DNA of 64,000 bases, from the NCBI GenBank assembly GCA_017548505.1, contig JAFYZX010000005.1, forward strand, positions 385 to 64,384, in the 5' to 3' direction. Under the pieces are notes generated by a model, which saw only the letters and a list, made by a program, of their open reading frames with translations, did not search any database and had not been told where the DNA came from. This DNA is from Bacteroidales bacterium. GTDB taxonomy: Bacteria; Bacteroidota; Bacteroidia; Bacteroidales; UBA932. Position 1 is the first letter of the stretch; each line of letters starts with the position of its first letter. Position numbers and translations under genes: made by a program. Below are positions 21,301-37,934 of this stretch, piece after piece.

Positions 21301-21445
21301 CTTCACCCTGACCAACTACTCCGGTGTTGACGCTGTTGGTAACTCCAACAACGCATCTATGGGTGGTACCGGTGGTATAGGAATCGATGCCTGGGGTATC
21401 CCTACTCCTAGAAGTATGTCTATCGGTATCAACTTAACCTTCTAA
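18314..21445 (+). CDS. SusC/RagA-family TonB-dependent outer membrane transporter
   Basis: 1043 aa. Signal peptide, carboxypeptidase-regulatory-like start ([23 protein letters not shown]), plug motif [36 protein letters not shown], and a C-terminal aromatic residue (..INLTF). Confidence 0.95.
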   Translation: [1043 protein letters not shown]

Positions 21446-21456
21446 TCGAAAGGAAT

Positions 21457-23391
21457 ATGAAAAAGATATATACTATAATTCTCGTTGCAACTCTTGGATT
21501 CTTCTTCGCAGGTTGCGACCACTATCTGGACGTGAACAAGAACACTGACGCTCCGGATGAAGCAATGGTTGAGGATTACCACTATCTGGCAGGCGTGGAG
21601 GCTTGTCTCCAGGGTCTGTACTGGGATATTAGGGCTACAGGTCCTCTTTCCCAGATGATGGGTACTTCTTCCTACACCGGATATTGCAACAACTACTGGA
21701 CTCCTTCCGATTCCGGTGGAGAAATGTGGAGGGTTACATACTGGCTCCAGGGTAAAAACCTTGAGAACCTTATTAACTATGCAATTGAGCATGAGCACTG
21801 GACCATTGCCGGTATCGGCTACGCCCTCAAGGCTCACTCTTGGGATGTTACTTCCAAGGAGAATGTGGATATGCCTCTCCGCCAGGCTTACGAGCCGGGA
21901 AGACTCTCCCACGACTATGACTATCAGGATTTGATCTACGACTCAATCCAGACTTGGGCTCTCAGGGCTATCGAGTATCTCGAGATGCCTGACGCTACCC
22001 AGTATTCTTCCGACGCAAAGAGTGCCGACATTATTTGGGGCCTCAAGAGTGAAAGATGGATCAAGTTTGCTCACGGAGTTCTTTGCCGCAACATGATCTC
22101 ACTGGTAAGGAAGACCGATTTCATTTCCAAGTATGCTGATCAGGTTATCGAGCACGGTAAACTGGCTATGCAGACTCTGGATGATGACTGCATCCTTCCG
22201 GTTCCGGGAGACGGCGCAGACGCACAGTTCAGTGCCATGAACAATTTCTGGTGCCCTAGAAGAGGCAACCTGACCAACTCCTACTGGCAGAGCGACTTCA
22301 TCGTAAAGATAATGACAGGTACCGTTCCTCTGTATGATCACGCTACCGGAGACCTTATCCCGACATCAAGGGAAGACATCGACACAGACTACTATCCTTA
22401 TGAACTGAATCCTAACCAGATTATCTGCGATACCAACAAGACTGACGCCGGTCACTTTGACCCACGTGTTGCAGCCAAGTTGGCTACAAGAGATAACCGC
22501 ACATTCGAGGATATTACCGATGAGGCCAAGGTTAAGAGCTACAAGTACTACGGTGCTGAATTTACTAGCAATGTAGGATACCAGGGCTGGACTGTTCCAA
22601 GTTTCTGGGGACGTACAGCTGTTGGAAGTACTGTTTATGACGGTATCGGCCGCTGGCTCTACCGCGAGAATGCACCTTACATCATTATGACTGCTGCCGA
22701 GATCAACTTTGAGATGGCAGAGGCTTACTGGTACAAGGGTGACAAGGCTAACGCACTGGCTTGCTGGAAGAAGGGTATTGAACTCGATATCCAGATGACC
22801 AGAAAGTACATCTATCCTGGAAAACCTATGAAGAACGACAAGGGAGAATTCGTTAATGACGGAGAACTCCCTGGAGGAGACAAGATAGCGCTTGCAGTTT
22901 ACGATAAGCTGGCCACAGAGTATCTCGCAGGTCCTTATGTAGCAGGCATCACCGCTTCTACCCTTACCCTGTCTCACATTATGATGCAGAAATATGTGCA
23001 TCTGTTCCCTTGGGGAGCTTACGAGGCTTGGGTTGACCTCCGCAAGTACCACTATGATATTGAATTCTCCGGAGACTATCCTTCCAACGGAAACGGTTGG
23101 TCAAACGAGAGAGTCAACCAGAAGTGGGATGAGGACGCAACGAAGGTTTACAAGGGATTCTACCTTAAGGCTGCAAACGTTCAACGCAGAAAGAGTGCAT
23201 ACAACATTAAGAACAATGGTTCTCCTGCTTACCGCAATACTCCTCGATACAACTCAGAGTATATGTGGAATCTTCCTGCATTGAAGGCTCTGAAGCCTAT
23301 CCCTGGCGCAGACGAGAATGGCGATTACCAGAATTACCATATCTCCATGCCGTGGTTCGTTTACCCTGGAGATTATCCAGAATCACTTTAA
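21457..23391 (+). CDS. SusD/RagB-family nutrient-binding lipoprotein
   Basis: 644 aa. Lipobox FFFAGCDHYLDVN, the typical SusD N-terminus, lies 11 nt after the SusC gene. TPR-like helical content, e.g. AEINFEMAEAYWYKGD. Confidence 0.9.
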   Translation: MKKIYTIILVATLGFFFAGCDHYLDVNKNTDAPDEAMVEDYHYLAGVEACLQGLYWDIRATGPLSQMMGTSSYTGYCNNYWTPSDSGGEMWRVTYWLQGKNLENLINYAIEHEHWTIAGIGYALKAHSWDVTSKENVDMPLRQAYEPGRLSHDYDYQDLIYDSIQTWALRAIEYLEMPDATQYSSDAKSADIIWGLKSERWIKFAHGVLCRNMISLVRKTDFISKYADQVIEHGKLAMQTLDDDCILPVPGDGADAQFSAMNNFWCPRRGNLTNSYWQSDFIVKIMTGTVPLYDHATGDLIPTSREDIDTDYYPYELNPNQIICDTNKTDAGHFDPRVAAKLATRDNRTFEDITDEAKVKSYKYYGAEFTSNVGYQGWTVPSFWGRTAVGSTVYDGIGRWLYRENAPYIIMTAAEINFEMAEAYWYKGDKANALACWKKGIELDIQMTRKYIYPGKPMKNDKGEFVNDGELPGGDKIALAVYDKLATEYLAGPYVAGITASTLTLSHIMMQKYVHLFPWGAYEAWVDLRKYHYDIEFSGDYPSNGNGWSNERVNQKWDEDATKVYKGFYLKAANVQRRKSAYNIKNNGSPAYRNTPRYNSEYMWNLPALKALKPIPGADENGDYQNYHISMPWFVYPGDYPESL

Positions 23392-23404: not shown

Positions 23405-24286
23405 ATGAAAAAGATATTTTTATCAATACTGGCAATTGCAGCTGTCATCTCCCTGTCTTCCTGCGAGAAGCACAAGATGCACTTCGACGTAACCGAACTT
23501 CCGGATGATATAGCAGAATTCCAGCTGCACTATATGGAGGCTATCAACAACGTGGCAGCAAACAACTTTGACTCTACGTTTGTAAACGGACAGCTTTATT
23601 CCAACGCCGGCGGTTCCGGTATCCTCTATCCTTACAACGGAATTCCTTCCGGTGGCGCTGGAGGAAGATTCTTTGCAGCCAAGGTGGGCTCTAACCACTT
23701 CCAGCTTTACAGGGGTGCGGATATAGCTTATGACATGAATGTTACCCTTAAGAAGGGCAAGCAGAATGTCATAATCTATGACCTGACACAGGAGCCTATC
23801 ATCATCGATAACCCTGCCCCTTACTGGGCTGACAGGCAGATTACCGGTTCTAACTGGAACACCGACCAGGTATTCCAGGTGCAGTTTGTTAACCTCCTCT
23901 TCTCCAGACCTGGAACCCCTTACGCAGGAACTCTCCAGTATCAGTACAAGAGGGCAGGTAACATCCTGGATCCTATCACCGGCGAGGTTATAGGTCCTGA
24001 GCCTGAAGAATGGTACAACATGGGAGAACCTGTTGCATTCGGAGAAACCACCGGATTCCAGATTCTTGAGATGCACAAGCAGACCTTCAACTCTTCAGGT
24101 AGCCAGAGGTTCGACTACAGAATCCTCACCGAGACCGGTGAAGAGCTGATGAAGTGGAACGGCAGCAAGTATGTGAAATACACTGACTACTGGACAGCTT
24201 ACATCGGAAGAGTTTACACTCACTTCTTCCGCGGCAACCTGGACACTTCCCCAGTCTGCAACGTTTCACAGTGGGCTAATATGTAG
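23405..24286 (+). CDS. PUL-associated surface lipoprotein, unknown function
   Basis: 293 aa with lipobox ISLSSCEKH, 13 nt after susD. No recognisable catalytic motif. Confidence 0.6.
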   Translation: MKKIFLSILAIAAVISLSSCEKHKMHFDVTELPDDIAEFQLHYMEAINNVAANNFDSTFVNGQLYSNAGGSGILYPYNGIPSGGAGGRFFAAKVGSNHFQLYRGADIAYDMNVTLKKGKQNVIIYDLTQEPIIIDNPAPYWADRQITGSNWNTDQVFQVQFVNLLFSRPGTPYAGTLQYQYKRAGNILDPITGEVIGPEPEEWYNMGEPVAFGETTGFQILEMHKQTFNSSGSQRFDYRILTETGEELMKWNGSKYVKYTDYWTAYIGRVYTHFFRGNLDTSPVCNVSQWANM

Positions 24287-26467: not shown

Positions 26468-27277
26468 TTACTTAAGTTTCCTGAAATCTGCGGCAGGTTC
26501 TTGTATTTGGATCAAGGAATCTGCCGCAGGCTTTTTTAACAGGAATGTACGGGATTCCTTATTCAAAGTGTCTGAGATTATCAGTTTTTCAGCCACGTCA
26601 TATCTTGAGGGGCCGTGTCCGAAAATGAAAGTATAAGTTCCACTTCCATTACCCGCTTCTGCAAAATGCCAGGAGACAGTCTTTCCGTCTCCGTTGAAAA
26701 ACAGGGTGTCTGCCCCGCTTGCGAAAACTCCTGAAAGCGGCTCGGGTTCAGGGGTTCCCGGATCCGGTGGCAGGTTGATGTTCTTGCAGCCTTCCAGTAG
26801 AGAAGCCAGAAAGTACAGAATCATAAGCACCAGAAGGATGATAATCAGCCAGCTGAAAAAGCCTCTCTTCTTTTTCTGAGGAGCGGCAGCTTGCTGGTAT
26901 TTTGGCTGCTGCGCCTGCTGATAATTCTGCCGTGGTGGTTGCTGATAGCTTTGCTGTTGCTGGTAATTCTGCCGCGGTGGCTGCTGATATTGTGTTCCGG
27001 TTGCGGAAGCTTCTGGTTTCGGCTTAGGATTTTCCCAGGATGAAAGCACCACTTCTCCGGCGGTTTTTGATGCTCCCAAAAACTCTTCCTGATTACCCTC
27101 AAGGGTATTGGTTTGAGGGCTCTGGCGGACTGTCTGTTTGGGAGCGGCCGGTTTCTTGGGCTTTGCCGGAGCCGGCTTGCTGGCCGGTGCCTTTGCAAGT
27201 TCCTGTTTTGTTCCGCAGACAGAACAGAATTTGGCGTCATCGCTGAGCTGTGTTCCGCAATTTGTGCAGTATTTCAT
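26468..27277 (-). CDS. zinc-ribbon membrane protein with Pro/Lys- and Gln-rich linker, unknown function
   Basis: 269 aa. N-terminal CxxC..CxxC ribbon MKYCTNCGTQLSDDAKFCSVCGT, a PAPAKPKKPAAPK stretch, and the 14-aa repeat QQPPRQNYQQ.Q.Y twice. One TM (FFSWLIIILLVLMILYFLASLL) and a ~100-aa C-terminal domain. Last gene of the operon, 3 nt after the giant gene. Confidence 0.75.
   Translation of the reverse strand: MKYCTNCGTQLSDDAKFCSVCGTKQELAKAPASKPAPAKPKKPAAPKQTVRQSPQTNTLEGNQEEFLGASKTAGEVVLSSWENPKPKPEASATGTQYQQPPRQNYQQQQSYQQPPRQNYQQAQQPKYQQAAAPQKKKRGFFSWLIIILLVLMILYFLASLLEGCKNINLPPDPGTPEPEPLSGVFASGADTLFFNGDGKTVSWHFAEAGNGSGTYTFIFGHGPSRYDVAEKLIISDTLNKESRTFLLKKPAADSLIQIQEPAADFRKLK
26488..26537 (+). 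terminator. probable pepP terminator embedded in the 3' coding end of the convergent zinc-ribbon gene
   Basis: CTGCGGCAG...CTGCCGCAG (9-bp stem, 24-nt loop) followed by GCTTTTTT, 25-75 nt after the pepP stop. Confidence 0.6.
26922..26989. repeat. 42-nt in-frame tandem repeat inside the zinc-ribbon gene
   Basis: TAATTCTGCCGTGGTGGTTGCTGATA (26922-26947) and TAATTCTGCCGCGGTGGCTGCTGATA (26964-26989). They encode the duplicated QQPPRQNYQQ unit on the minus strand. Confidence 0.85.
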
Positions 27278-27280
27278 GGC

Positions 27281-30200
27281 TTATAGGTATTCGTTTATTT
27301 CTTTTATTACTCCGGCACATTCTTCCACAACCTGCTCGATTGTGCAGCCGTACTGGTCCTGAAGGACGAGCCTTGCCTCTTCCAGCGTGGTAGGGAGGAT
27401 GTCTTTTGGAGGAGGGTTGCCAATGGATTCGAGGATACGGATTTTCTCGTACAGAATGCTGTAATCCTTGCCCACTCCCTTTGCATTGAGAGCTGTGATT
27501 CTTGGGTCAAGTATGCGCTTGAACTGCTTTACATTCTGGCGGATACCCTCTTCTATAAGAGCGTCTCCATAGCCGCGCACATGCATAGCCTCTTCTATCA
27601 TTCCCATATCGTAGAGTTGCTGGGCCTGATTCTGGCAATTCTTGCCCTGGCTAATCCATTCCTTGCACTTGTACTCGAAGGTGTTGGCAACCCTTTCAGG
27701 ATCGTAAAGTTTATTGGTCTGGAATTCTTTCTTGATGATATTCTGGAGGTCTTTTCCGTATGATTCCTTTCCGAGTTCTCCGTGGACGGTTGCCTGGTCG
27801 AACTTCTTCAATGTCTTGATTGCCTGCTGCTTGTCTGCCGGCATGTATCCGTAATGGTACTCGTTGAAGGCCTCGGCGTATGCTTCTTCCATTAGATCTT
27901 CCTGGATATCAACCCACTTGCCGTCCTTGCCCCTTACCTGGAAGGTTACATCCCTGTCTGCACCGATCTTCTTTCCAAGATAGAGATCGTCACCGGCATT
28001 TCCGGTTGCTCCCTTGAAAGGCTGTATGTCTTTTTCGGGAACTCCGAGTTTCTTGGCCAGTTTCTTAATGGTCATAGGATCCACCTCGTCATATATCTTC
28101 TGCATCTGGGCGTTGTAGTTTGCCCTTAGCAAATCGGACGGGCTGTTACGCAGTAGGTTCTGGGCGTTCTTGTTGCCCTGGAGAGCAAGAGTTGCGCGCC
28201 TGACTTCTTCTGGAGTGGCGTTAGGATTGTTCATCACCTTCTTGAAGTCGTCATATATCTTCTGCGCATCCTTACGGGCAACCTTTGAACATTCCTCAGC
28301 GAACTTGGACTCTTTTGTAAAGATGGCGTCTCCCTTCATCCTGGTCTTGCGGATAGCGTCGTTGGCACCGGCAATTGAAGATTTCCTGGTCTTGCCCGCT
28401 TTCTTTCCGGCATCCGTTATCTTGTCAGCTATCTTCTTGGTACTGAAGCTGCTGCTGTTGGCTATCTTTTTAGTAGCATCCTTGCCTTCCTTTGCCTTGG
28501 TGACGTAATCCTTGATTTTTTTATAGCCTTCCTTGAGCTTTCCCCATCCTTCTTTTGCCTTGGCAACAGCTTTGGCTTCCACCTGCTGCCCGACCTGGGT
28601 TCCCCTGGCCCATTTGAGTGCCTTTCCTCCCACATAAAAGACTCCTTCCCAGAAGAACACTTCCACACTGGCAACCACAAAGCCCTTGAAGGCGCTGTCT
28701 CCGCCCTTGTCTACATATTCCTTCATCTTTACGACTCCACTGTACGGCATGAGCACAAGTTCGGAGGCTCCTGCAGTAAAGTAGGCCAGGGCGATTCTCA
28801 GTCCGATAACCGGAATGGACTTTTCCATAGAGGCGAAGGTTGCAACAAAGGCGTTGAAGTTCTCGTCCGCTTCTGTCCACTCCGGAGTCCAGGCTGCATC
28901 ATTCACAAAGTAATACCCGATCTGGCCGGAACAGTACTTGTCAAAGACATTCTTTATCTTTTTGTAGTCAGGCTCATAGACACCGAACCGGCTGTCGTAT
29001 CCTTCTATGAGGGCGTGTACCTTATAATAGAAAGGCATCAGGTATGAGAATCTTGGGTCAAAGCCTATCTTTGAGCGGATGTCTATAAGCTGGTTGAGCT
29101 TTTTCTCGTCGTCCTTGAGAGCCAGGTTATACTCCCTGTTGTCTGCGATGTCGCGGAACGGCTGGGATATGATCATCACTTCGTCGGTGTCTTCATATTC
29201 CTTTCCGTTGTAAGTAACCTTGAGGGTAACCTTTGCCTTTGCCCTGTTAGGAGGCAGAAGTCCTCCGCCTCCGGAATGAATCAGACCCACAACGGTATTG
29301 TCCGAACGCACTTCCTTGCACACAAACTTGAAGTTCATCAAAGCGCAAGGATTTGGAACGTCATTCCCGTACTTGTCTCTGAAGAGAACATTTCCTTCAG
29401 GCATATCTTCGAAGGTGAAAACAGGCTCTGCATCAGGCAGTACGCTTCTGATATCACCTGTCTTTTTATCCTCGGCGATGAGCTTGAAAGTTACCTTGCT
29501 TTCTCCCCATTTCTTTCTTGCCTTAGGGTTGGTGGCAAGGATTTCATTCTCCAGGGTGCTGTCATAATCAACAAGGTATGCTTTAAGGGCCCGGATGTCC
29601 ATGTGGACGCCAAGATTCATCCTGTAAAGGTCGAACGTTGTTTTCAGAGGTTCTTTGCGTCCTTCCAGATTTACAGTCACGTAGCAAGTATAACGTTCAG
29701 CATCTCCTGCAATGGCGTTCTCCTTTTCCTTTTCCGTAATCTTTCCGCATTCCGTAACGTTTATCCGGAATTTAACGGGAATCTTCTCGTCCTGTAAAGT
29801 TTCTGCGCTGAAAAATTTTGCTCCGCCCTTGTCCATAGAAACATCAACGCCCAGCACTTCCGTGGTGCAGTTGTTGATTCCAAACTCCATGAACAGGGTC
29901 TTTCCGCCTCCAGCTTCAAATGTAAGCGCCTCTCCGATCACTATTTCCGGGCAGGCCACAACTTTGAAGACCACGTGGTTAATTAGTGTTCCGGCATGTC
30001 CGTTGAAGACAAATCTTACCTTGGCCTTGCCTTCTTCTCCCTCAGGAGGGGCATTTTTTGCCACAACGTTGCAGCTCATATATTTGCCCACCATCCGGGA
30101 ATCGCTGATGGAACAATTCTCCTCTTCAAAAATTGAAATCTGGGCTGAGAGGTCCGGCCTGTTTATCTTCTCTCCGTAAACGTTTATTTCTTCGATTCGG

Positions 30201-31060
30201 GCTCCAATCATCTGAGGAGGATCTCCCACCACGAGAGTATCTCCAAAATCCTTATAGAGAAGCATCCGGAAGCGGCTGCGGTCCTTGTCGTCGTCATCAT
30301 TCTTCTGCTCTTTCTTCTGAGGTTCTTTCTTTGCCGGCTTTGCCTTCGGCTTCTTCTTTTTGCCGATAAGAGCCGCTCCGCCTATAACAGCTGCACCGCC
30401 ACCTATGATGTAAATCCACGGAATCTCTGTTCCTTCTTCTTCCTCACCTTCCTTATCCGAGGCAACGGTGGTCTTTTCCGTCAGCTGCCCGGGTCCGCGG
30501 TATTCATATAGATATTTCTGATATACTGCAATTTCGTGCGCTCCCGCCTGAAGCAATTTGCAGCTTACCATTATCAGCAGTTTGGAATCCCTGCCAGGAT
30601 TAATGTTCTCAGATGGAAAATGTTCGTAAACTCTGAAAACTTTGCCGTCTCCCCGGAAAAAGGCCTGAGAGTATGAAGATGTCATTGTTGCTCCAATCTG
30701 GTAAACGAGCTTACATGCTTTTAGAGCCTGAGGAGTAAGACCCGGGTCAAATGCCCTGTCGTACTGGAAAGTTACATTGTCCTCATCTCCAAAGCGTATC
30801 TTGGAAGGAGGATCCTGCCAGGTCATGGTAACTGTGCCGTCGTTTGTGCGTGCATAGTTCCTTCTGATGGTCCACAGCTGTTTCTTATCTCTCCCGCTTC
30901 CGTTATGGGAAATGCCATCGCTGTTTTCCTGAATCTCGGTCTTTACCAGCACCCAGTAGCCTTCTTCTGCAAATGCTGAGGAAACTGTCGCGATAAAGAT
31001 GAAAAGAAACAAGCACTGTCTAATCCATCCCAATCGCTGGGAAAAACTATGATGGTTCAT
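27281..31060 (-). CDS. giant (1259 aa) multi-domain membrane protein, no recognisable family
   Basis: Signal peptide (res 1-31), ~180-aa ectodomain, TM WIYIIGGGAAVIGGAALIG (215-233), then a poly-Lys/Asp stop-transfer region. A beta-rich region (263-640) is followed by a hydrophobic hairpin (748-812), a Lys-rich low-complexity stretch (820-915) and a ~345-aa helical C-terminal domain. I recognise no catalytic motif. Confidence 0.8.
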   Translation of the reverse strand: MNHHSFSQRLGWIRQCLFLFIFIATVSSAFAEEGYWVLVKTEIQENSDGISHNGSGRDKKQLWTIRRNYARTNDGTVTMTWQDPPSKIRFGDEDNVTFQYDRAFDPGLTPQALKACKLVYQIGATMTSSYSQAFFRGDGKVFRVYEHFPSENINPGRDSKLLIMVSCKLLQAGAHEIAVYQKYLYEYRGPGQLTEKTTVASDKEGEEEEGTEIPWIYIIGGGAAVIGGAALIGKKKKPKAKPAKKEPQKKEQKNDDDDKDRSRFRMLLYKDFGDTLVVGDPPQMIGARIEEINVYGEKINRPDLSAQISIFEEENCSISDSRMVGKYMSCNVVAKNAPPEGEEGKAKVRFVFNGHAGTLINHVVFKVVACPEIVIGEALTFEAGGGKTLFMEFGINNCTTEVLGVDVSMDKGGAKFFSAETLQDEKIPVKFRINVTECGKITEKEKENAIAGDAERYTCYVTVNLEGRKEPLKTTFDLYRMNLGVHMDIRALKAYLVDYDSTLENEILATNPKARKKWGESKVTFKLIAEDKKTGDIRSVLPDAEPVFTFEDMPEGNVLFRDKYGNDVPNPCALMNFKFVCKEVRSDNTVVGLIHSGGGGLLPPNRAKAKVTLKVTYNGKEYEDTDEVMIISQPFRDIADNREYNLALKDDEKKLNQLIDIRSKIGFDPRFSYLMPFYYKVHALIEGYDSRFGVYEPDYKKIKNVFDKYCSGQIGYYFVNDAAWTPEWTEADENFNAFVATFASMEKSIPVIGLRIALAYFTAGASELVLMPYSGVVKMKEYVDKGGDSAFKGFVVASVEVFFWEGVFYVGGKALKWARGTQVGQQVEAKAVAKAKEGWGKLKEGYKKIKDYVTKAKEGKDATKKIANSSSFSTKKIADKITDAGKKAGKTRKSSIAGANDAIRKTRMKGDAIFTKESKFAEECSKVARKDAQKIYDDFKKVMNNPNATPEEVRRATLALQGNKNAQNLLRNSPSDLLRANYNAQMQKIYDEVDPMTIKKLAKKLGVPEKDIQPFKGATGNAGDDLYLGKKIGADRDVTFQVRGKDGKWVDIQEDLMEEAYAEAFNEYHYGYMPADKQQAIKTLKKFDQATVHGELGKESYGKDLQNIIKKEFQTNKLYDPERVANTFEYKCKEWISQGKNCQNQAQQLYDMGMIEEAMHVRGYGDALIEEGIRQNVKQFKRILDPRITALNAKGVGKDYSILYEKIRILESIGNPPPKDILPTTLEEARLVLQDQYGCTIEQVVEECAGVIKEINEYL

Positions 31061-31071
31061 TGTAACCTGTT

Positions 31072-31842
31072 TTATTTCTTTACTTTAGGGCAACGGGACT
31101 TTATATAGTTGTACACAAAGTCAAAGTCTTTCTTAGGCACATATATCTGGTTGTGCTCAAAAGGCTCGTGAACCTTGATGCACTTTAGCCATCTGAGAGG
31201 CTTTATCCTGCGTACAACCTTGAAAGTGGAGGTTGAAACCTGCTTGGTGGTAGAAAGGATTCCGACACCGGTAGTGGTGAGATTTCCCGTTGACGCACCA
31301 GCCATGGCAGTTATCCAACCCAGAATCTGGGCTTTCTTGAATTGCTTTGGCACCTGGATATGGCGGATCTGTTCTTCATCCATTTCAAACAGAACGCAAT
31401 AGCTGCCGCCATAAATAAAAGTAAGTACAATCAGGCTGATAATTGTGAGGCCTGCCATAATAGCCATGGCTATCAAAAGAGCCTCTCCCATTCCTGTCAA
31501 TTGATCCCAGTCTCCGTGTATGATAGCCGGTATTACTCCGAATACCAGCATCATACCCGCCAGAATAAAGAAGAAAATCTTGAGTACGGTAAACAGGATT
31601 ACTGGATTTGTAAGCATATTGAGCTTGTAAACCCAGCGGTACTTGCCATCGTTGCAGAGCTTGATTTCGGCACCCTGGTAGTTTTTATCTGCGGCTTCTC
31701 CTTCCGCATGCTTTTCTTCCGAATAGTGTTCCTTCTCTACGGGGATGTTCTCTTTTGCGGAGCCTTCCACCGGATTTCCGCAACTGGTGCAGAATTTTGC
31801 GTTGTCCGGCAACTGTGTTCCGCAGTTTGTGCAAAATTTCAT
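31072..31842 (-). CDS. zinc-ribbon polytopic membrane protein, unknown function
   Basis: 256 aa. MKFCTNCGTQLPDNAKFCTSCGN ribbon and a CNDGKYRWVYKLNMLTNP motif, followed by 3-4 hydrophobic helices and a basic C-terminal domain. It lies 11 nt upstream of the giant gene. Confidence 0.75.
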   Translation of the reverse strand: MKFCTNCGTQLPDNAKFCTSCGNPVEGSAKENIPVEKEHYSEEKHAEGEAADKNYQGAEIKLCNDGKYRWVYKLNMLTNPVILFTVLKIFFFILAGMMLVFGVIPAIIHGDWDQLTGMGEALLIAMAIMAGLTIISLIVLTFIYGGSYCVLFEMDEEQIRHIQVPKQFKKAQILGWITAMAGASTGNLTTTGVGILSTTKQVSTSTFKVVRRIKPLRWLKCIKVHEPFEHNQIYVPKKDFDFVYNYIKSRCPKVKK

Positions 31843-31864
31843 AGGACTATGTTTTTAATTATTT

Positions 31865-32071
31865 CTAGGAAAGGTCTATCCCGCAGCTGCGCAGGCCGAG
31901 CAATACAAAAATCAGCAAGGCGGCGGAAAGAACGAGGGTAATGACCATAAGAAGCCAGTTCTTTCTGTTTTTCCTCTGCGATAAAAGTCTGGCAATTAAG
32001 ACCAAAGACAAAACCAAGATTGCTACGACAATCCAGTTCTGAGTCTGGCTGAGTGCAAGAATTGTATTCAT
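31865..32071 (-). CDS. 68-aa two-TM membrane protein
   Basis: MNTILALSQTQNWIVVAILVLSLVLIARLL-SQRKNRKN-WLLMVITLVLSAALLIFVLLGL. Two hydrophobic helices are joined by a basic loop. The gene is wedged 8 nt and 22 nt from its neighbours. Confidence 0.55.
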   Translation of the reverse strand: MNTILALSQTQNWIVVAILVLSLVLIARLLSQRKNRKNWLLMVITLVLSAALLIFVLLGLRSCGIDLS

Positions 32072-32079
32072 GGCAGGCC

Positions 32080-33609
32080 CTAAAAATTGAAACCGATATC
32101 CTTTACCAGGCGGACGGCAAAGCCGGCAGCTTTTGAGTTAGAGGGATCATTATATACTCCTTTTAAAACTGAGGAAATAATCACAGCACCTCCCTCCGTG
32201 GAAGTCCAATAGAAGCCTTCTCCAAGACGATCAACATTCGTACCCATACGCCCTCCGGTAATAGGAAGGAAGACGGCGCCCTTAGGCTCCCAATCGGTTT
32301 TCCAATCGGATGAAGAAACTGTATTATCATTAAAGTTTGAGTGGGCTGAGTTCATCGCCGGGCTTGTCCAGGAGCCATCCGGGAGAAGGATAAGGCCCAT
32401 TATCCCATTTACAGTTGCAAAGCCATATTTTGTTGACGCATCGGCGCGGTGAGTCGTGATTTCCGACTCGGGGATGCCGAGCAAATAACCCCACTCCGCG
32501 CGTGACAGAGTTCGCCAACCGAAGCCGGAGGCATTGCCGCCGTTCGTGATTGCACTATTGCCCCATTCAGACCAGCTATAATCATTTTCATCATCGCTGA
32601 CGTTGTTTGGATTGTTTTGCGTTCCCCATCCCAAAAGATCCCGGTGATCGTCGATCTGCGAATTGCCGAAGCTGTCCCACTGGTTTTCGGCAAATTGCCA
32701 GGAACCCACGTACTGCAGGTTACCCTGAGAGAAATAGACCTTTTTCTCTTCCGAGACGGAGAACTTGCCGATGTATCTGGCGGTTTTCCACATGTGAGAA
32801 GCGTCATCAAGGCTCTTGAACTTGTAGAAAGTGCTAGGTGTGAGAGCACGAGTTTTTTCAAATATAGTATAATTATCTCCGTTGCATAGGTAAAAATAGT
32901 AATCCAACACAGTTCCCGGGCTGTCGATGTATCCTGAATAAACTACACCCTCGGCATCGGCAAACCCGGCAAGGGGACCGGTTGGGAGGGTATATTTAAT
33001 ACCATCATCCTGAATGCCTCTGACTTGCCGAGGCCTGACGTTGCTTACACGGAATGAATAATTCTTGAAGGTTGTTTGCAGGCCAGGAATGTGGAACTGG
33101 ACGGAATTCTCCGGGATGCTCAGGCTCAGGTTCAAAGTAATAGCCGTTCCGCTGACGGTGTATGGGACATTCTGCTGCTCCAGGTAATAGGTTGCCGGCC
33201 ATGCGTCGTCGGCAGTGACGAACTCAAGAATCTGCTTGTCGTTGAATGTAGTAAATTGCGGTGTAACATTGACCGGGAAATAGATGGCGTGGCAATACTT
33301 TCTGGCGGCGGCAAAATCACCCTCGGTAAAAGCGGCGCTCTGCGTTGCCTCCCATGTAGAAGCTCCAGCGTTGTATGTAAGAGTGAGATACTTGTTGTTT
33401 ATATCCTGAAACTTGACATAAATCTTATCTCCGCCGAGCCATACAGATTTGGCCTCCGCTTTGGTCTTTGGCGCATCGACGGTTACCTTGAAGGTAAAGT
33501 GGGCGGTCTCTTCCTTATCTGTTCCGTTGTCGTCAGGGGCCGGAAGATCATTCTTAGTGCAGGCGAAAAGCGCAGCGAACGCGCAAAGGAAAACAAATGC
33601 TTTTTTCAT
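32080..33609 (-). CDS. surface lipoprotein with C-terminal FISUMP/DUF1566-type (lectin-like) domain
   Basis: Lipobox FAALFACTKN when started at the ATG at 33609 (MKKAFVFLCAF). The C-terminal 200 aa carry GWRTLSRAEWGYLL, GAVFLPITGGR, FYWTSTE and AAGFAVRLVKD, resembling the Fibrobacter-succinogenes-major-paralogous/DUF1566 fold. First large gene of the operon. Confidence 0.7.
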   Translation of the reverse strand: MKKAFVFLCAFAALFACTKNDLPAPDDNGTDKEETAHFTFKVTVDAPKTKAEAKSVWLGGDKIYVKFQDINNKYLTLTYNAGASTWEATQSAAFTEGDFAAARKYCHAIYFPVNVTPQFTTFNDKQILEFVTADDAWPATYYLEQQNVPYTVSGTAITLNLSLSIPENSVQFHIPGLQTTFKNYSFRVSNVRPRQVRGIQDDGIKYTLPTGPLAGFADAEGVVYSGYIDSPGTVLDYYFYLCNGDNYTIFEKTRALTPSTFYKFKSLDDASHMWKTARYIGKFSVSEEKKVYFSQGNLQYVGSWQFAENQWDSFGNSQIDDHRDLLGWGTQNNPNNVSDDENDYSWSEWGNSAITNGGNASGFGWRTLSRAEWGYLLGIPESEITTHRADASTKYGFATVNGIMGLILLPDGSWTSPAMNSAHSNFNDNTVSSSDWKTDWEPKGAVFLPITGGRMGTNVDRLGEGFYWTSTEGGAVIISSVLKGVYNDPSNSKAAGFAVRLVKDIGFNF

Positions 33610-33625
33610 AATACAATCCTCCCGG

Positions 33626-33745
33626 TTAAATGTCTTCTTCATTCCACTTAGCTGGATTGGATACCTGTAACAAGGAAACAGCAGCCGTCAGTTCCACCAT
33701 TATGACAGAAGGTGCTGAATAGGTTTCTTTCATCATTTTATCCAT
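33626..33745 (-). CDS. candidate 39-aa sORF upstream of the operon
   Basis: Own translation: MDKMMKETYSAPSVIMVELTAAVSLLQVSNPAKWNEEDI. It lies between the predicted -7 box (33810-33817) and the lipoprotein ATG (33609). It is below the ORF-track size cut-off, and no homology was assessed. Confidence 0.3.
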   Translation of the reverse strand: MDKMMKETYSAPSVIMVELTAAVSLLQVSNPAKWNEEDI

Positions 33746-36371: not shown

Positions 36372-36887
36372 ATGAAACGAATGACTACATTGCTTCTTGC
36401 CTGCCTCGCTTCTTTGGCACTTTTCTCCTGCGAAAAGATTGAGCCGGTTGAGATTCCGGAGCCTCAGAAAGGAGAAGAGAAGCAGCCGGAGGACAATAAA
36501 TACAACTCCAACAATAACGACCAAACAACCATAATGGTTATGAACATAACTGCCGGCGGAAAGACCATTACCGCCACACTGTCCAATAACGAGACCGCCA
36601 AAGAACTGGCCAAGAAGCTGAAAGCTGGCGCTGTTACCGTCCAGATGAAGGCCAATGGATTCGAGCACTACGGGCCGCTGGGTTTTACGCTCACCAACCA
36701 CAACGAGCAGATTGCGGCCGCCTCCGGAGATATTATGCTCTACAACAGCAATAATATCTGTGTGTTCTATGGCAACAACAGCTGGTACTACACCCCGCTC
36801 GGAAAGGTGGACGGTCTCTCTGCAGACGAGCTAAAGACATTCTTCGGCACAGGCGACATCTCCGTCACATATTCACTGAAACAATAA
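36372..36887 (+). CDS. cyclophilin-like-fold lipoprotein, unknown function
   Basis: 171 aa, lipobox LALFSCEK. ITAGGKTITATLSNNETAKEL...GDIMLYNSNNICVFYG resembles the cyclophilin-like-fold family often found next to reductases in gut anaerobes. Assignment from memory. Confidence 0.5.
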   Translation: MKRMTTLLLACLASLALFSCEKIEPVEIPEPQKGEEKQPEDNKYNSNNNDQTTIMVMNITAGGKTITATLSNNETAKELAKKLKAGAVTVQMKANGFEHYGPLGFTLTNHNEQIAAASGDIMLYNSNNICVFYGNNSWYYTPLGKVDGLSADELKTFFGTGDISVTYSLKQ

Positions 36888-36893
36888 CACGTT

Positions 36894-37934
36894 ATGCAAA
36901 AGATACTCATCACCCTTGCGGGCATCGCCCTGCTGGCATCCTGCTGCAACAACAAAAACACAAATGATATGAACCTCACACAGGAATGGGACAAGACGTT
37001 CCCAAAATCCGACCTGGTGGAGCATTCCAAGGTCACTTTCCACAACCACTACGGCATTACTCTGGTTGCTGATATGTATATACCCAAAGGCGCAGAGGGC
37101 AAGCTGCCCGCTATAGCGGTCTCCGGTCCTTTCGGAGCCGTTAAGGAGCAGACCAGCGGTATCTATGCCCAGCATTTGGCAGAACGGGGCTTTCTCACCA
37201 TTGCTTTTGACCCGTCCTATACTGGCGAGAGTGGCGGAGAACCCCGCCGGATGGCTTCCCCGGACATCAATACCGAGGACTTTCTGGCTGCTGTGGATTT
37301 CCTTTCCGTGCAGGAGAATGTGGATTCTGAGCGTATTGGCATTATCGGTATATGCGGTTGGGGCGGAATGGCCATCAATGCAGCGGCTCTTGACCCCCGC
37401 ATCAAAGCAACTCTCACTTCCACTATGTACGATATGTCTCGCGTGGCACGTGAAGGATATTTCGGTAGTGCCGATAATGTCGAGGCTCGCGACGCACAGC
37501 GCGCAGCCTGGGCTGCCCAGCGAACGGAAGATTATCGTACTGGTAATTACAAGCGCGCCGGCGGTGTTGTTGATCCACTTCCGGAGGATGCTCCTTGGTT
37601 CGTGAAGGACTACTACGATTACTACAAGACCGAACGCGGCTATCACCCTCGCAGCGGCAACTCCAATGACGGATGGAACATCACGGGCACAATGTCCTTC
37701 CTGAACCAGCCTCTGCTGGATATGGCCGGTGAAATCAAGACTCCTGTGCTTCTGATTCACGGTGAGAAGGCCCACAGCCGCTATTTCAGCGAAGGTGCTT
37801 TTGCTAAACTTAAGGGAGACAATAAGGAACTCCTCATCATCCCTGGCGCTGTACATACGGACCTGTATGACGATAAGGCAGGCGTAATTCCTTACGACAA
37901 GATAGAATCATTCTTCAAGGAAAACCTGAAATAA
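36894..37934 (+). CDS. alpha/beta hydrolase, dienelactone-hydrolase-like (Cys nucleophile)
   Basis: 346 aa, lipobox LLASCCNN. The nucleophile elbow is G-I-C-G-W-G (GxCxG rather than GxSxG), as in dienelactone hydrolases. Late His in PGAVHTDLY. Confidence 0.7.
   Translation: MQKILITLAGIALLASCCNNKNTNDMNLTQEWDKTFPKSDLVEHSKVTFHNHYGITLVADMYIPKGAEGKLPAIAVSGPFGAVKEQTSGIYAQHLAERGFLTIAFDPSYTGESGGEPRRMASPDINTEDFLAAVDFLSVQENVDSERIGIIGICGWGGMAINAAALDPRIKATLTSTMYDMSRVAREGYFGSADNVEARDAQRAAWAAQRTEDYRTGNYKRAGGVVDPLPEDAPWFVKDYYDYYKTERGYHPRSGNSNDGWNITGTMSFLNQPLLDMAGEIKTPVLLIHGEKAHSRYFSEGAFAKLKGDNKELLIIPGAVHTDLYDDKAGVIPYDKIESFFKENLK

What the first reader, a model, noticed from the sequence alone, without database searches (positions are those of the whole stretch)
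27281..31060. Architecture of the 1259-aa giant protein: ectodomain, TM, poly-Lys stop-transfer, beta-rich core, re-entrant hydrophobic hairpin, Lys-rich tether, helical C-terminal domain
From the translation: cleavable signal (1-31, ..SSAFA/EEG), an ectodomain to ~213, then a Gly/Ala-rich TM at 215-233 (nt 30362-30418). Next comes KKKKPKAKPAKKEPQKKEQKNDDDDKD, then about 380 aa rich in short beta-strand-like segments. Two hydrophobic segments follow at 748-812 (nt 28625-28819), then the low-complexity stretch KAVAKAKEGWGKLKEGYKKIKDYVTKAKEGKDATKK.. (820-915). A ~345-aa C-terminal domain (nt 27284-28318) has no motif I can name. A large cytoplasmic body tethered twice to the membrane, ending in a separate module after a flexible basic linker, resembles effector or toxin-type modular proteins. 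This is inference only.
Basis: inference. Interest (0 to 1): 0.65.

Follow-up and report, generated by a model that had tools for sequence, protein, structure and literature searches.

The report
Giant membrane protein with new enzyme-like domain
A 1259-residue inner-membrane protein of a rumen Bacteroidales bacterium has a fast-evolving outer domain and, on the cytoplasmic side, four Ig-like modules and a strongly conserved, previously undescribed enzyme-like end domain; it always travels with two zinc-ribbon membrane proteins, and its function is unknown.

Summary
The ORF and nearly all listed features are real. Signal peptide, beta-rich ectodomain, Gly/Ala-rich TM, poly-Lys then acidic run, about four Ig/cadherin-like beta-sandwiches (263-631), Lys-rich helical linker and a confident C-terminal domain (pLDDT ~90) are all confirmed. 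The "re-entrant hairpin" (748-812) is not confirmed as membrane-spanning: hydropathy is sub-threshold, the second segment is not hydrophobic family-wide, and the model is poor there. It is nevertheless the most constrained part (dN/dS 0.01-0.04). The C-domain matches nothing in Pfam, NCBIfam, PADLOC, PHROGs, PDB or BFVD. It defines a family of 425 clusters with near-universal Q961, K964, D1035xD1037, K1131, E1171xxR1174xxxK1178. It is a separable module: a separate gene in Eggerthellaceae, and about 20% of long carriers have other N-terminal bodies, some placing it after a Pre-toxin-TG domain. In this clade, however, the variable end is the ectodomain and the C-domain is predicted cytoplasmic, so a delivered polymorphic toxin is unlikely. 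The gene forms a conserved three-gene module with two Zn-ribbon membrane proteins across phyla. Best guess, at low confidence, is an outside-in sensor-effector membrane complex. Function is untested.

The parts
27281..31060 (-). Giant gene, 1259 aa plus stop codon
   Evidence: ORF list. There are 81 homologues, almost all 1210-1390 aa and all annotated 'hypothetical'.
30968..31060 (-). Residues 1-31: Sec-type signal peptide (..SSAFA/EEG)
   Evidence: KD19 is 1.79. The N-terminal hydrophobic segment is conserved, with a family median of 1.78. Cleavage is inferred, not tested.
30449..30967 (-). Residues 32-204: fast-evolving beta-rich periplasmic ectodomain
   Evidence: AlphaFold pLDDT about 88. 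Lowest conservation in the protein, 0.33. Identity falls to 20-25% in relatives whose C-domain is 85-93% identical. dN/dS 0.14-0.24.
30359..30448 (-). Residues 205-234: conserved pre-TM motif (G205 E206 .. P214) and Gly/Ala-rich TM helix 215-233
   Evidence: KD19 1.74, family median 1.72. G205 is invariant; E206 and P214 are nearly invariant.
30275..30358 (-). Residues 235-262: poly-Lys stop-transfer run followed by an acidic run
   Evidence: Net charge +7 in the 15 residues after the TM against -6 before it. The basic-then-acidic pattern is kept across the family. pLDDT is below 40.
29153..30274 (-). Residues 263-636: three to four tandem Ig/cadherin-like beta-sandwich modules, predicted cytoplasmic
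   Evidence: pLDDT about 88. Foldseek against PDB gives E 1e-11 to 1e-8 for cadherin, titin and SbsC arrays at 7-10% identity. dN/dS 0.05-0.13.
28826..29152 (-). Residues 637-745: conserved helical region
   Evidence: Helices 641-724 with pLDDT about 85. dN/dS 0.005-0.07.
28616..28825 (-). Residues 746-815: moderately hydrophobic helix pair with conserved R755, T762, G764, S766, E767 and the DKGGDS loop. This is the most constrained part of the protein; membrane insertion is not established.
   Evidence: KD19 1.43 and 1.42; family medians 1.43 and 1.15. pLDDT 44-55. dN/dS 0.008-0.04. muH about 0.1.
28316..28615 (-). Residues 816-915: Lys-rich (23% K, net +18) helical tether
   Evidence: Composition. 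Low-confidence long helices. Weak coiled-coil-type hits only. dN/dS 0.10-0.27. Amphipathic helix with muH 0.63.
27284..28315 (-). Residues 916-1259: C-terminal domain of a family absent from the libraries searched. It is mostly helical with a small four-stranded sheet. The core that stands alone as a gene elsewhere is about 996-1259.
   Evidence: pLDDT about 90. No Pfam, NCBIfam, PADLOC, PHROGs, PDB-sequence, PDB-fold or BFVD match. 425 cluster representatives at E<=1e-3.
27950..27958 (-). D1035-R-D1037: near-universal DxD on a predicted beta-strand
   Evidence: D1035 in 211/212 and D1037 in 212/212 representatives, remote carriers included.
27527..27550 (-). E1171-x2-R1174-x3-K1178 on one face of a long helix. 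With Q961, K964 and K1131 it forms the conserved polar constellation.
   Evidence: E in 213/215, R in 211/215, K in 216/216, K1131 in 213/214, Q961 in 202/209, K964 in 196/209.
31072..31842 (-). Upstream partner, 256 aa: cytoplasmic Zn-ribbon, two TM helices (89-107, 122-140) and a conserved cytoplasmic C-terminal domain. It lies 11 nt from the giant gene.
   Evidence: Pfam Zn_Ribbon_1, E 4e-10. TM peaks. Orthologues sit next to the giant gene in L001, L003-L005 and L008-L014. The family has 750 unnamed clusters.
26468..27277 (-). Downstream partner, 269 aa: cytoplasmic Zn-ribbon, Q/P-rich spacer, one TM (143-161) and a small external domain. It lies 3 nt from the giant gene.
   Evidence: Pfam Zn_Ribbon_1, E 1e-9. 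TM peak. Orthologues (46-82% identity) in L008-L013; in L005 a 258-aa Zn-ribbon protein at this position matches only over the ribbon. The external domain is also found in L004:14395-14871.

Best explanation
The gene encodes a bitopic (N-out, C-in) inner-membrane protein that is the large subunit of a conserved three-gene membrane module.

Shown or directly predicted:
- a Sec signal;
- a fast-evolving beta-rich periplasmic domain;
- one Gly/Ala-rich TM helix with a poly-Lys stop-transfer;
- a cytoplasmic stalk of three to four Ig-like beta-sandwiches;
- a helical region ending in an extremely conserved, moderately hydrophobic helix pair;
- a Lys-rich amphipathic helical tether;
- a C-terminal domain of a family absent from the libraries searched, whose near-universal residues (Q, K, DxD, K, ExxRxxxK) look like a metal- and phosphate-binding active site;
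- two Zn-ribbon membrane proteins, both with the ribbon in the cytoplasm, co-inherited with it across phyla.

Inferred: the module works outside-in.
- The variable periplasmic domain is the input.
- The hydrophobic helix pair docks on the membrane or on the TM hairpin of the polytopic partner.
- The C-domain is an enzymatic output acting in the producer's cytoplasm close to the membrane.
- The Zn-ribbon partners regulate or restrain the C-domain.

Relatives of the C-domain sit behind Pre-toxin-TG modules in other bacteria. The output is therefore plausibly a toxic or effector-type activity, which would make this a conflict or defence-type sensor-effector rather than a delivered toxin.
For: Architecture.

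Topology: signal plus TM plus charge asymmetry of -6/+7. The partners' Zn-ribbons have no signal peptide and precede their TMs.

Enzyme-like C-domain: invariant polar residues are kept in more than 200 representatives, including carriers with unrelated N-termini, and dN/dS is 0.03-0.06.

Module:
- Partners are adjacent in Bacteroidales loci L005 and L008-L014, in L001/L002, in L004 and in Eggerthellaceae L003.
- Gene order is rearranged but linkage is kept in L012/L013.
- The cassette is duplicated in L009.
- The divergent polytopic carrier P0135 is also flanked by three Zn-ribbon genes.
- One giant homologue, P0123, has a fused N-terminal Zn-ribbon.

Variable input end: ectodomain identity is 20-25% where the C-domain is 85-93%, and the ectodomain dN/dS is 4-7 times that of the C-domain.

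Toxin-type relatives: PT-TG lies directly upstream of the C-domain in P0210, P0195, P0223, P0211 (24.5 bits against a 23.5 cut-off), P0224 and, by BLAST only, P0192. PT-TG is associated with T6SS, T7SS and CDI toxins and with Big-repeat proteins lacking a known toxin domain (PMC13483458).
Against: - No activity, ligand or phenotype is known for any member, and the sensor-effector logic is inference from anatomy.
- The Bacteroidales loci lie in stable housekeeping-type neighbourhoods, not defence islands.
- PADLOC has no hit.
- The ectodomain's dN/dS of 0.14-0.24 shows relaxed or partly diversifying constraint, not demonstrable positive selection. dS is near saturation, so cassette replacement cannot be told from fast drift.
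- Arrays of Ig-like domains are more typical of extracytoplasmic proteins, which sits uneasily with the predicted cytoplasmic location.
- The C-domain has no structural neighbour, so 'enzyme' rests on the conservation pattern alone.
- PT-TG hits are marginal for five of the six proteins.
Confidence: 0.35

Rival explanations
1. Housekeeping envelope-associated enzyme or scaffold. The module is a constitutive inner-membrane complex. Its C-domain acts on a membrane-proximal cellular substrate, such as a lipid-linked or nucleotide-activated envelope precursor. The periplasmic domain only anchors or positions it.
For: Stable chromosomal position with conserved flanking synteny in close relatives. 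Neighbours are ordinary metabolic or envelope genes. Purifying selection is strong along the cytoplasmic part. The family occurs in both diderm Bacteroidales and monoderm Eggerthellaceae. A Lys-rich amphipathic tether is suited to lying on an anionic membrane.
Against: Tandem paralogue expansions: four giant genes in L006 and a duplicated cassette in L009. The ectodomain evolves fast. The C-domain sits behind PT-TG or Big-repeat carriers elsewhere. One divergent member lies among toxin-antitoxin, HNH and SNF2 genes. These features are unusual for a core biosynthetic enzyme.
Confidence: 0.27
2. One reading: a polymorphic toxin or effector whose C-terminal domain is delivered into other cells, with a neighbouring gene providing immunity.
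For: The C-domain is a separable module. It is a split gene in L003, it occurs on alternative carriers, and it lies directly after PT-TG in a sister clade that includes signal-peptide-bearing proteins of about 750 aa. Tandem Ig-like repeats parallel the Big-repeat PT-TG proteins of PMC13483458. A gene follows the giant gene at a 3-nt distance.
Against: The signal peptide plus TM plus poly-Lys run place the C-domain in the producer's cytoplasm. All full-length relatives in this clade carry the same strongly conserved C-domain, and the variable end is the N-terminus, which is the opposite of polymorphic toxins. No T6SS, T7SS, T9SS, CDI or Rhs domain was found in the protein or its neighbours. 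The canonical hydrophobic region is not a PT-TG domain. The downstream gene is a membrane protein with a variable external domain, not a typical small cytoplasmic immunity protein.
Confidence: 0.1
3. Non-enzymatic structural or adaptor protein. The C-domain is a binding module, for nucleic acid, lipid head-groups or another protein. The conserved charged residues are a binding surface, not an active site.
For: No catalytic fold was recognised. E1171/R1174/K1178 line one face of a long helix, which would also suit a binding surface. Much of the C-half consists of long helices with only weak, generic resemblance to stalk, tape-measure or alpha-pore-former proteins.
Against: A near-universal DxD on a beta-strand together with invariant K, E, R and K across carriers with unrelated N-termini is more typical of catalysis. 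Placement after PT-TG suggests a payload.
Confidence: 0.15
4. The C-domain is a Pol-beta-type nucleotidyltransferase that makes a nucleotide signal. The motif [ST][GS]N - short helix - DxD on the next strand resembles hG[GS]x9-13DhD.
For: In the window's clade the pattern GATGN(x13)DRD, with strand, loop, helix and strand, mimics the NTase core.
Against: The [ST][GS]N part is not kept in remote family members. No NTase appears in Pfam scans at E<=5, in PDB profile searches at E<=10 or in Foldseek. hhalign against a genuine MNT (L020:3740-4156) gives probability 0.2%.
Confidence: 0.05

Closest known systems
Big-repeat / PT-TG proteins without a recognised toxin domain (architecture groups 30/31 of Becerra Soto et al. 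2026, PMC13483458)
   Same: Remote homologues of the window's C-domain (P0211, P0224, P0192) have exactly this layout: Big_7/CARDB Ig-like repeats, then PT-TG, then the C-domain. The window protein also has tandem Ig-like modules followed by a helical region and the same C-domain.
   Different: The window protein has no detectable PT-TG and no Pfam-recognisable Big domain. It has a signal peptide plus a stop-transfer TM that should leave the repeats and the C-domain in the cytoplasm, and it is partnered with Zn-ribbon membrane proteins.
Classical polymorphic toxins (CdiA, Rhs/WapA, LXG; Zhang et al. 2012, PMC3482391)
   Same: Large modular protein with a discrete C-terminal module after a linker. 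The module is found on several kinds of carrier.
   Different: The polymorphism is at the wrong end: the N-terminal ectodomain varies and the C-domain is conserved. There is no trafficking domain and no adjacent small immunity gene, and the payload is predicted cytoplasmic.
Type I (bitopic) receptor-type sensors with a cytoplasmic enzymatic output; membrane-embedded phage-defence sensor-effector complexes such as Kiwa or Zorya (from general knowledge, not tested here)
   Same: Variable external domain, single TM, conserved cytoplasmic output, and co-inherited small membrane partners.
   Different: No homology to any of them. PADLOC has no hit. There is no defence-island context in the Bacteroidales loci. 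The resemblance is one of logic only.
TcaA-like or 'zinc ribbon domain-containing' membrane proteins (for the partners)
   Same: N-terminal cytoplasmic Zn-ribbon followed by TM helices and an external or cytoplasmic domain.
   Different: Similarity is confined to the roughly 25-residue ribbon, and the NCBIfam TcaA score of 14-15 bits is far below its 550-bit cut-off. The polytopic partner's body forms its own unnamed family of 750 clusters.

Membership tests
Polymorphic toxin systems | Closely related N-terminal bodies carry unrelated, swappable C-terminal toxin domains | tested here: not met
   Nearly all full-length relatives (78 of 81 hits) carry the same C-domain. In the two Eggerthellaceae hits it is a separate adjacent gene, and only P0081 lacks it. 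The C-domain is 85-97% identical where the ectodomain is 20-70% identical. dN/dS of the C-domain is 0.03-0.06.
Polymorphic toxin systems | Recognisable secretion or trafficking domain (VgrG/PAAR, LXG/WXG, FHA/TPS, Rhs, T9SS CTD) or a pre-toxin domain | tested here: not met
   No such Pfam hit in the window protein or in 36 other canonical members. PT-TG is present only in a sister clade. The hydrophobic region compared with PT-TG by hhalign scores no better than a reversed control.
Polymorphic toxin systems | Cognate immunity gene immediately downstream of the toxin domain | tested here: inconclusive
   The downstream gene (26468..27277) is a Zn-ribbon single-TM protein and is linked in most loci, but in L012/L013 and L004 another gene intervenes, and in L001 the Zn-ribbon genes are upstream. 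Neutralisation cannot be tested in silico.
Polymorphic toxin systems | Toxicity of the isolated C-terminal domain | not testable with these tools
   This needs expression of residues about 916-1259 (or 996-1259), with and without D1035A/D1037A, in E. coli or Bacteroides.
Pol-beta-like nucleotidyltransferases | hG[GS] x9-13 Dh[DE]h motif conserved across the family, with an NTase alpha/beta core | tested here: not met
   DxD is universal, but the [ST][GS]N element is lost in remote members. No NTase hit by Pfam, PDB profile, Foldseek or hhalign.
   KD19 is 1.43 and 1.42. Family medians are 1.43 (16/60 reach 1.6) and 1.15 (1/60 reaches 1.6). Polar residues are conserved inside, pLDDT is 44-55, and muH is low, so the segments are not amphipathic either. 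No dedicated topology predictor was available.
Ig-like / cadherin-like beta-sandwich arrays | Tandem seven-to-nine-strand beta-sandwich modules | tested here: met
   AlphaFold model at pLDDT about 88 over 263-631. There are 374 PDB matches at E<=1e-3, led by cadherin, protocadherin, titin and SbsC arrays. This shows the fold only (7-10% identity), and no Pfam Ig family is matched.
Known anti-phage defence systems (PADLOC-DB 2.0) | Significant match of any component to a defence-system model | tested here: not met
   No hit for the giant protein. There are only ribbon-level hits at E about 0.01 for the partners.

The most novel reading that the evidence does not exclude
The module is a new kind of transmembrane sensor-effector (defence or abortive-infection-like) complex. 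A toxin-type enzyme of a previously undescribed fold family is held in the producer's own cytoplasm on a Lys-rich tether. It is restrained by Zn-ribbon membrane partners and released or activated when the fast-evolving periplasmic domain detects an invader, such as a phage injection apparatus or an incoming bacteriocin. In other lineages the same enzyme domain is deployed as a secreted PT-TG-linked toxin.
Probability: 0.18. Interest if true: 0.8.

Novelty: new variant of a known kind. Interest (0 to 1): 0.6.

Why it matters
The work defines three things that are absent from the libraries searched:
- a widespread C-terminal domain family with an active-site-like signature (425 clusters at 50% identity, across Bacteroidales, Eggerthellaceae and other unidentified lineages);
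- its canonical carrier, a giant bitopic protein with cytoplasmic Ig-like repeats;
- an obligate-looking partnership with Zn-ribbon membrane proteins.

It also offers a candidate identity for the 'missing' C-terminal payload of the Big-repeat/PT-TG proteins recently flagged as lacking a recognisable toxin domain.

If the C-domain is an enzyme, it is a new catalytic family. If the module is a sensor-effector, it would be an unusual case of a toxin-type domain retained inside the producer. The family is abundant in ruminant-gut Bacteroidales, where almost nothing is known about such membrane complexes.

Tried and rejected
1. Nucleotidyltransferase reading of GATGN..DRD. Rejected: the motif is not conserved in remote members and there is no NTase signal by Pfam, PDB profile, Foldseek or hhalign.

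2. Hydrophobic region 746-815 as a divergent PT-TG domain, suggested by its position and an apparent SxPVxG..TG..SG collinearity with P0224. Rejected: no PT-TG hit in 37 canonical members at E<=1, HMM matches are insignificant, and the hhalign score equals the reversed-sequence control.

3. Recent recombination as the cause of a near-identical C-half with a divergent N-end. Not supported: dS is 0.5-2 along the whole gene, so the contrast reflects different selective constraint. For the 20%-identity ectodomains dS is saturated, and replacement cannot be told from drift.

4. Structural neighbours of the C-half. Foldseek gives a best E of 0.3 against PDB and 0.023 against BFVD. The hits are only generic long-helix matches such as dynein stalk, ClyA/SmhB, TolC and tape-measure proteins. 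They are not significant and I did not use them.

5. Profile searches of the full protein and of the C-domain against PDB sequences gave only coiled-coil or designed-helix noise.

6. PADLOC, PHROGs and NCBIfam gave nothing for the giant protein.

7. A scan of species-representative genomes with the C-domain alignment failed because no stretch was conserved enough for a search pattern. The single-protein scan found only nine close loci, all ruminant Bacteroidales MAGs.

8. The promoter and terminator scans were uninformative, at about the number expected by chance, and sigma-70 consensus does not apply to Bacteroidota.

9. The 520-aa lipoprotein gene upstream (32080..33642) was considered as part of the module and excluded, because homology with syntenic loci stops at about 32080.

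Full report
**Observation check.**
The ORF at 27281..31060 (-) is real and encodes 1259 aa. The window is Bacteroidales-like, with SusC/SusD genes at 18314-23391. The nine closest genomic relatives are all ruminant-gut Bacteroidales MAGs.

**N-terminal region.**
- Hydropathy supports the N-terminal signal (KD19 1.79) and the Gly/Ala-rich TM at 215-233 (KD19 1.74). Both are conserved as hydrophobic segments in 60 homologues, with medians of 1.78 and 1.72.
- Net charge is -6 in the 15 residues before the TM and +7 after it.
- The basic-then-acidic run after the TM and a pre-TM motif (G205, E206, P214) are kept family-wide.
- The topology is therefore N-out/C-in. This rests on hydropathy and the positive-inside rule; no dedicated predictor was available.

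**Structure models.**
The protein was modelled in two overlapping halves from a 59-60-sequence alignment.
- N-half model (residues 1-830, mean pLDDT 77.8):
  - a folded beta-rich ectodomain at 35-200 (pLDDT about 88);
  - an unstructured TM/poly-Lys zone (pLDDT below 40);
  - three to four beta-sandwich modules over 263-631 (pLDDT about 88);
  - helices at 641-724.
- Foldseek against the PDB returns 374 matches at E<=1e-3, led by cadherin, protocadherin, titin and S-layer SbsC arrays at 7-10% identity. That is a generic Ig-like repeat fold, not family membership.
- C-half model (residues 640-1259, mean pLDDT 74.1):
  - low confidence over the hydrophobic region and the linker;
  - a confident C-terminal domain from about 889 to 1259 (pLDDT about 90), made of long helices around a small four-stranded sheet.

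**The 'hairpin'.**
Residues 748-812 contain two moderately hydrophobic helices, but several lines of evidence fail to show that they span the membrane.
- KD19 peaks at only 1.43 and 1.42.
- Across the family the first segment is borderline (median 1.43; 16/60 reach 1.6) and the second is not membrane-like (median 1.15; 1/60).
- Nearly invariant polar residues lie inside: R755, T762, G764, S766 (invariant across the 60 aligned homologues) and E767.
- AlphaFold confidence is 44-55.
- The segments are not amphipathic either (muH about 0.1).

Even so, this is the most constrained part of the protein, with dN/dS of 0.008-0.04 at dS of 0.6-1.4. I read it as a critical interface. It could dip into the membrane, dock on the partner's TM hairpin, or form the buried core of a helical domain. 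'Tethered twice' remains unproven.

**Linker.**
Residues 816-915 are 23% Lys with net charge +18. They are modelled as low-confidence helices, one strongly amphipathic (muH 0.63). Together with the ectodomain this is the least constrained part.

**C-terminal domain.**
- It matches nothing in the searches run:
  - Pfam, including per-member scans at E<=5;
  - NCBIfam, PADLOC and PHROGs;
  - PDB sequences by profile;
  - PDB folds and BFVD viral folds.

- An exhaustive HMMER search of 1.84 billion representatives with a 16-sequence profile found 425 clusters at E<=1e-3 and 294 at E<=1e-10.
- Aligning more than 200 of them shows a near-universal constellation:
  - Q961 and K964;
  - D1035-x-D1037 on a predicted strand;
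  - K1131;
  - E1171-x2-R1174-x3-K1178 on one helix face.
- This pattern, with dN/dS of 0.03-0.06, suggests a metal- and phosphate-binding active site. That is inference, since no fold or activity is known.
- A nucleotidyltransferase reading of GATGN..DRD was tested and rejected.

**Is the C-domain a movable module?**
- In Eggerthellaceae (L003) the giant gene ends after the hydrophobic region, and the C-domain is a separate 284-aa gene directly downstream (30% identity to residues 996-1247, E 4e-19).
- Among 184 long carriers, 144 share both the beta-core and the helix/hydrophobic region. Another 21 share only the latter, often with polytopic N-termini, and 18 share neither.
- The outliers include [Big_7/CARDB repeats - PT-TG - C-domain] proteins (P0211, P0224, P0192).
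- They also include a clade of about 750-780 aa, [signal peptide - coiled coil - PT-TG - C-domain] (P0210, P0195, P0223).
- P0211 passes Pfam's PT-TG cut-off and the others score E of about 4e-4 at the same position.
- PT-TG is a pre-toxin domain linked to T6SS, T7SS and CDI toxins. Big-repeat PT-TG proteins without a recognised toxin domain were recently highlighted (PMC13483458). The C-domain family is a candidate for that missing payload.

**Why this clade does not behave like a polymorphic toxin.**
- All full-length relatives carry the same C-domain.
- The variable end is the ectodomain: 20-25% identity in P0004-P0007, where the hydrophobic region is 91-99% and the C-domain 85-93% identical.
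- dS is high along the whole gene, so the contrast reflects constraint and not recent recombination.
- The canonical hydrophobic region is not a PT-TG domain.
- No trafficking domain is present, and the C-domain is predicted to be cytoplasmic.

**Genomic context.**
- The giant gene lies 11 nt downstream of a 256-aa gene and 3 nt upstream of a 269-aa gene on the same strand.
  - The 256-aa product has a cytoplasmic Zn-ribbon, two strong TM helices and a conserved cytoplasmic tail.
  - The 269-aa product has a cytoplasmic Zn-ribbon, a Q/P-rich spacer, one TM and a small external domain.
- Orthologues of the polytopic partner flank the giant gene in L001/L002, L004, L005 and L008-L014, and partially in L003.
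- The order is rearranged but linkage is kept in L012/L013, and the cassette is duplicated in L009.
- A divergent polytopic carrier (P0135, L020) is also flanked by three Zn-ribbon genes.
- One giant homologue (P0123) has a fused N-terminal Zn-ribbon.
- The partner family has 750 clusters, none with a functional name.
- In close relatives the downstream flank (SusD to aminopeptidase P) is syntenic, and homology ends just upstream of the polytopic partner. The module therefore spans about 26468-32080 and sits in a stable chromosomal position.

**Interpretation.**
- The best-supported picture is a three-subunit inner-membrane complex. Its large subunit couples a fast-evolving periplasmic domain to a conserved cytoplasmic enzyme-like domain through an Ig-like stalk, a critical hydrophobic helix pair and a basic tether.
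- I commit, at about 0.35, to an outside-in sensor-effector mechanism. In this reading the C-domain's activity is toxin-like, because of its PT-TG relatives, and the Zn-ribbon partners regulate it.
- The rivals are:
  - a housekeeping envelope enzyme or scaffold (0.27);
  - a non-enzymatic adaptor (0.15);
  - a delivered polymorphic toxin (0.10);
  - an NTase (0.05).
- The architecture itself is well supported. The mechanism is inference throughout.

**Novelty and score.**
- None of the three proteins matches a described family beyond the Zn-ribbon itself.
- The C-domain is a new family with a clear signature and a link to the polymorphic-toxin world, but on an unusual carrier that faces the cytoplasm.
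- I rate it a new variant of a known kind and give it an interest of 0.6.
- It yields directly testable hypotheses: topology fusions, DxD mutants, partner rescue and multimer modelling.

Noticed in passing
L006:1-16002 (locus of P0056, NCBI GCA_017454905.1): Four giant paralogues lie in tandem (25-48% identity to the window protein). Between them are two secreted proteins of 385 and 392 aa that are orthologous to the two genes downstream of the giant gene in L001 (382 and 393 aa). This subfamily may use different accessory proteins.
   Followed up: partly
L009:314-10590: The giant-gene cassette is duplicated in tandem in one rumen MAG: a 5'-incomplete giant gene plus a Zn-ribbon-TM gene, then a polytopic partner, a complete giant gene and another Zn-ribbon-TM gene.
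   Followed up: partly
P0123 (1880 aa), residues 5-22: A giant homologue carries a fused N-terminal Zn-ribbon (CRYCGNPISEDDLFCGNC). This gene fusion supports a functional link between the Zn-ribbon partners and the giant protein.
   Followed up: partly
L020:369-4565: The divergent polytopic carrier P0135 lies next to an MNT/HepT toxin-antitoxin pair, an HNH protein, a DUF429 protein and a SNF2-type helicase. This looks like a defence island, unlike the Bacteroidales loci.
   Followed up: no
L004:13397-15885: In this locus the same-strand cluster continues with a transglutaminase-core protein and a PrsW-family membrane protease downstream of the Zn-ribbon genes.
   Followed up: no
window 32080-33642 (-): A 520-aa predicted lipoprotein (N-terminal hydrophobic signal ending in a Cys) has no hit in Pfam, NCBIfam, PADLOC or PHROGs. 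It is not conserved in the syntenic loci of close relatives.
   Followed up: partly
window 26468-27277 (-), residues about 95-135: The downstream partner has a Gln/Pro-rich imperfect repeat (YQQPPRQNYQQ..) between the Zn-ribbon and the TM. Similar Q/P-rich spacers occur in the L001 and L004 Zn-ribbon proteins.
   Followed up: no
window 23405-24286 (+) and 36873-37856 (-): Two further ORFs, of 293 and 327 aa, have no Pfam match.
   Followed up: no
L019:14351-14716: A small 121-aa gene lies directly downstream of the 2739-aa Big_7/PT-TG/C-domain protein P0224. It is a candidate immunity gene for the toxin-type clade.
   Followed up: no
P0180 residues 368-393; P0192 residues 1874-1899: In some atypical carriers a SHOCT-like domain directly follows the C-domain. 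In P0180 the C-domain is near the N-terminus (residues 104-359), after a signal peptide.
   Followed up: no
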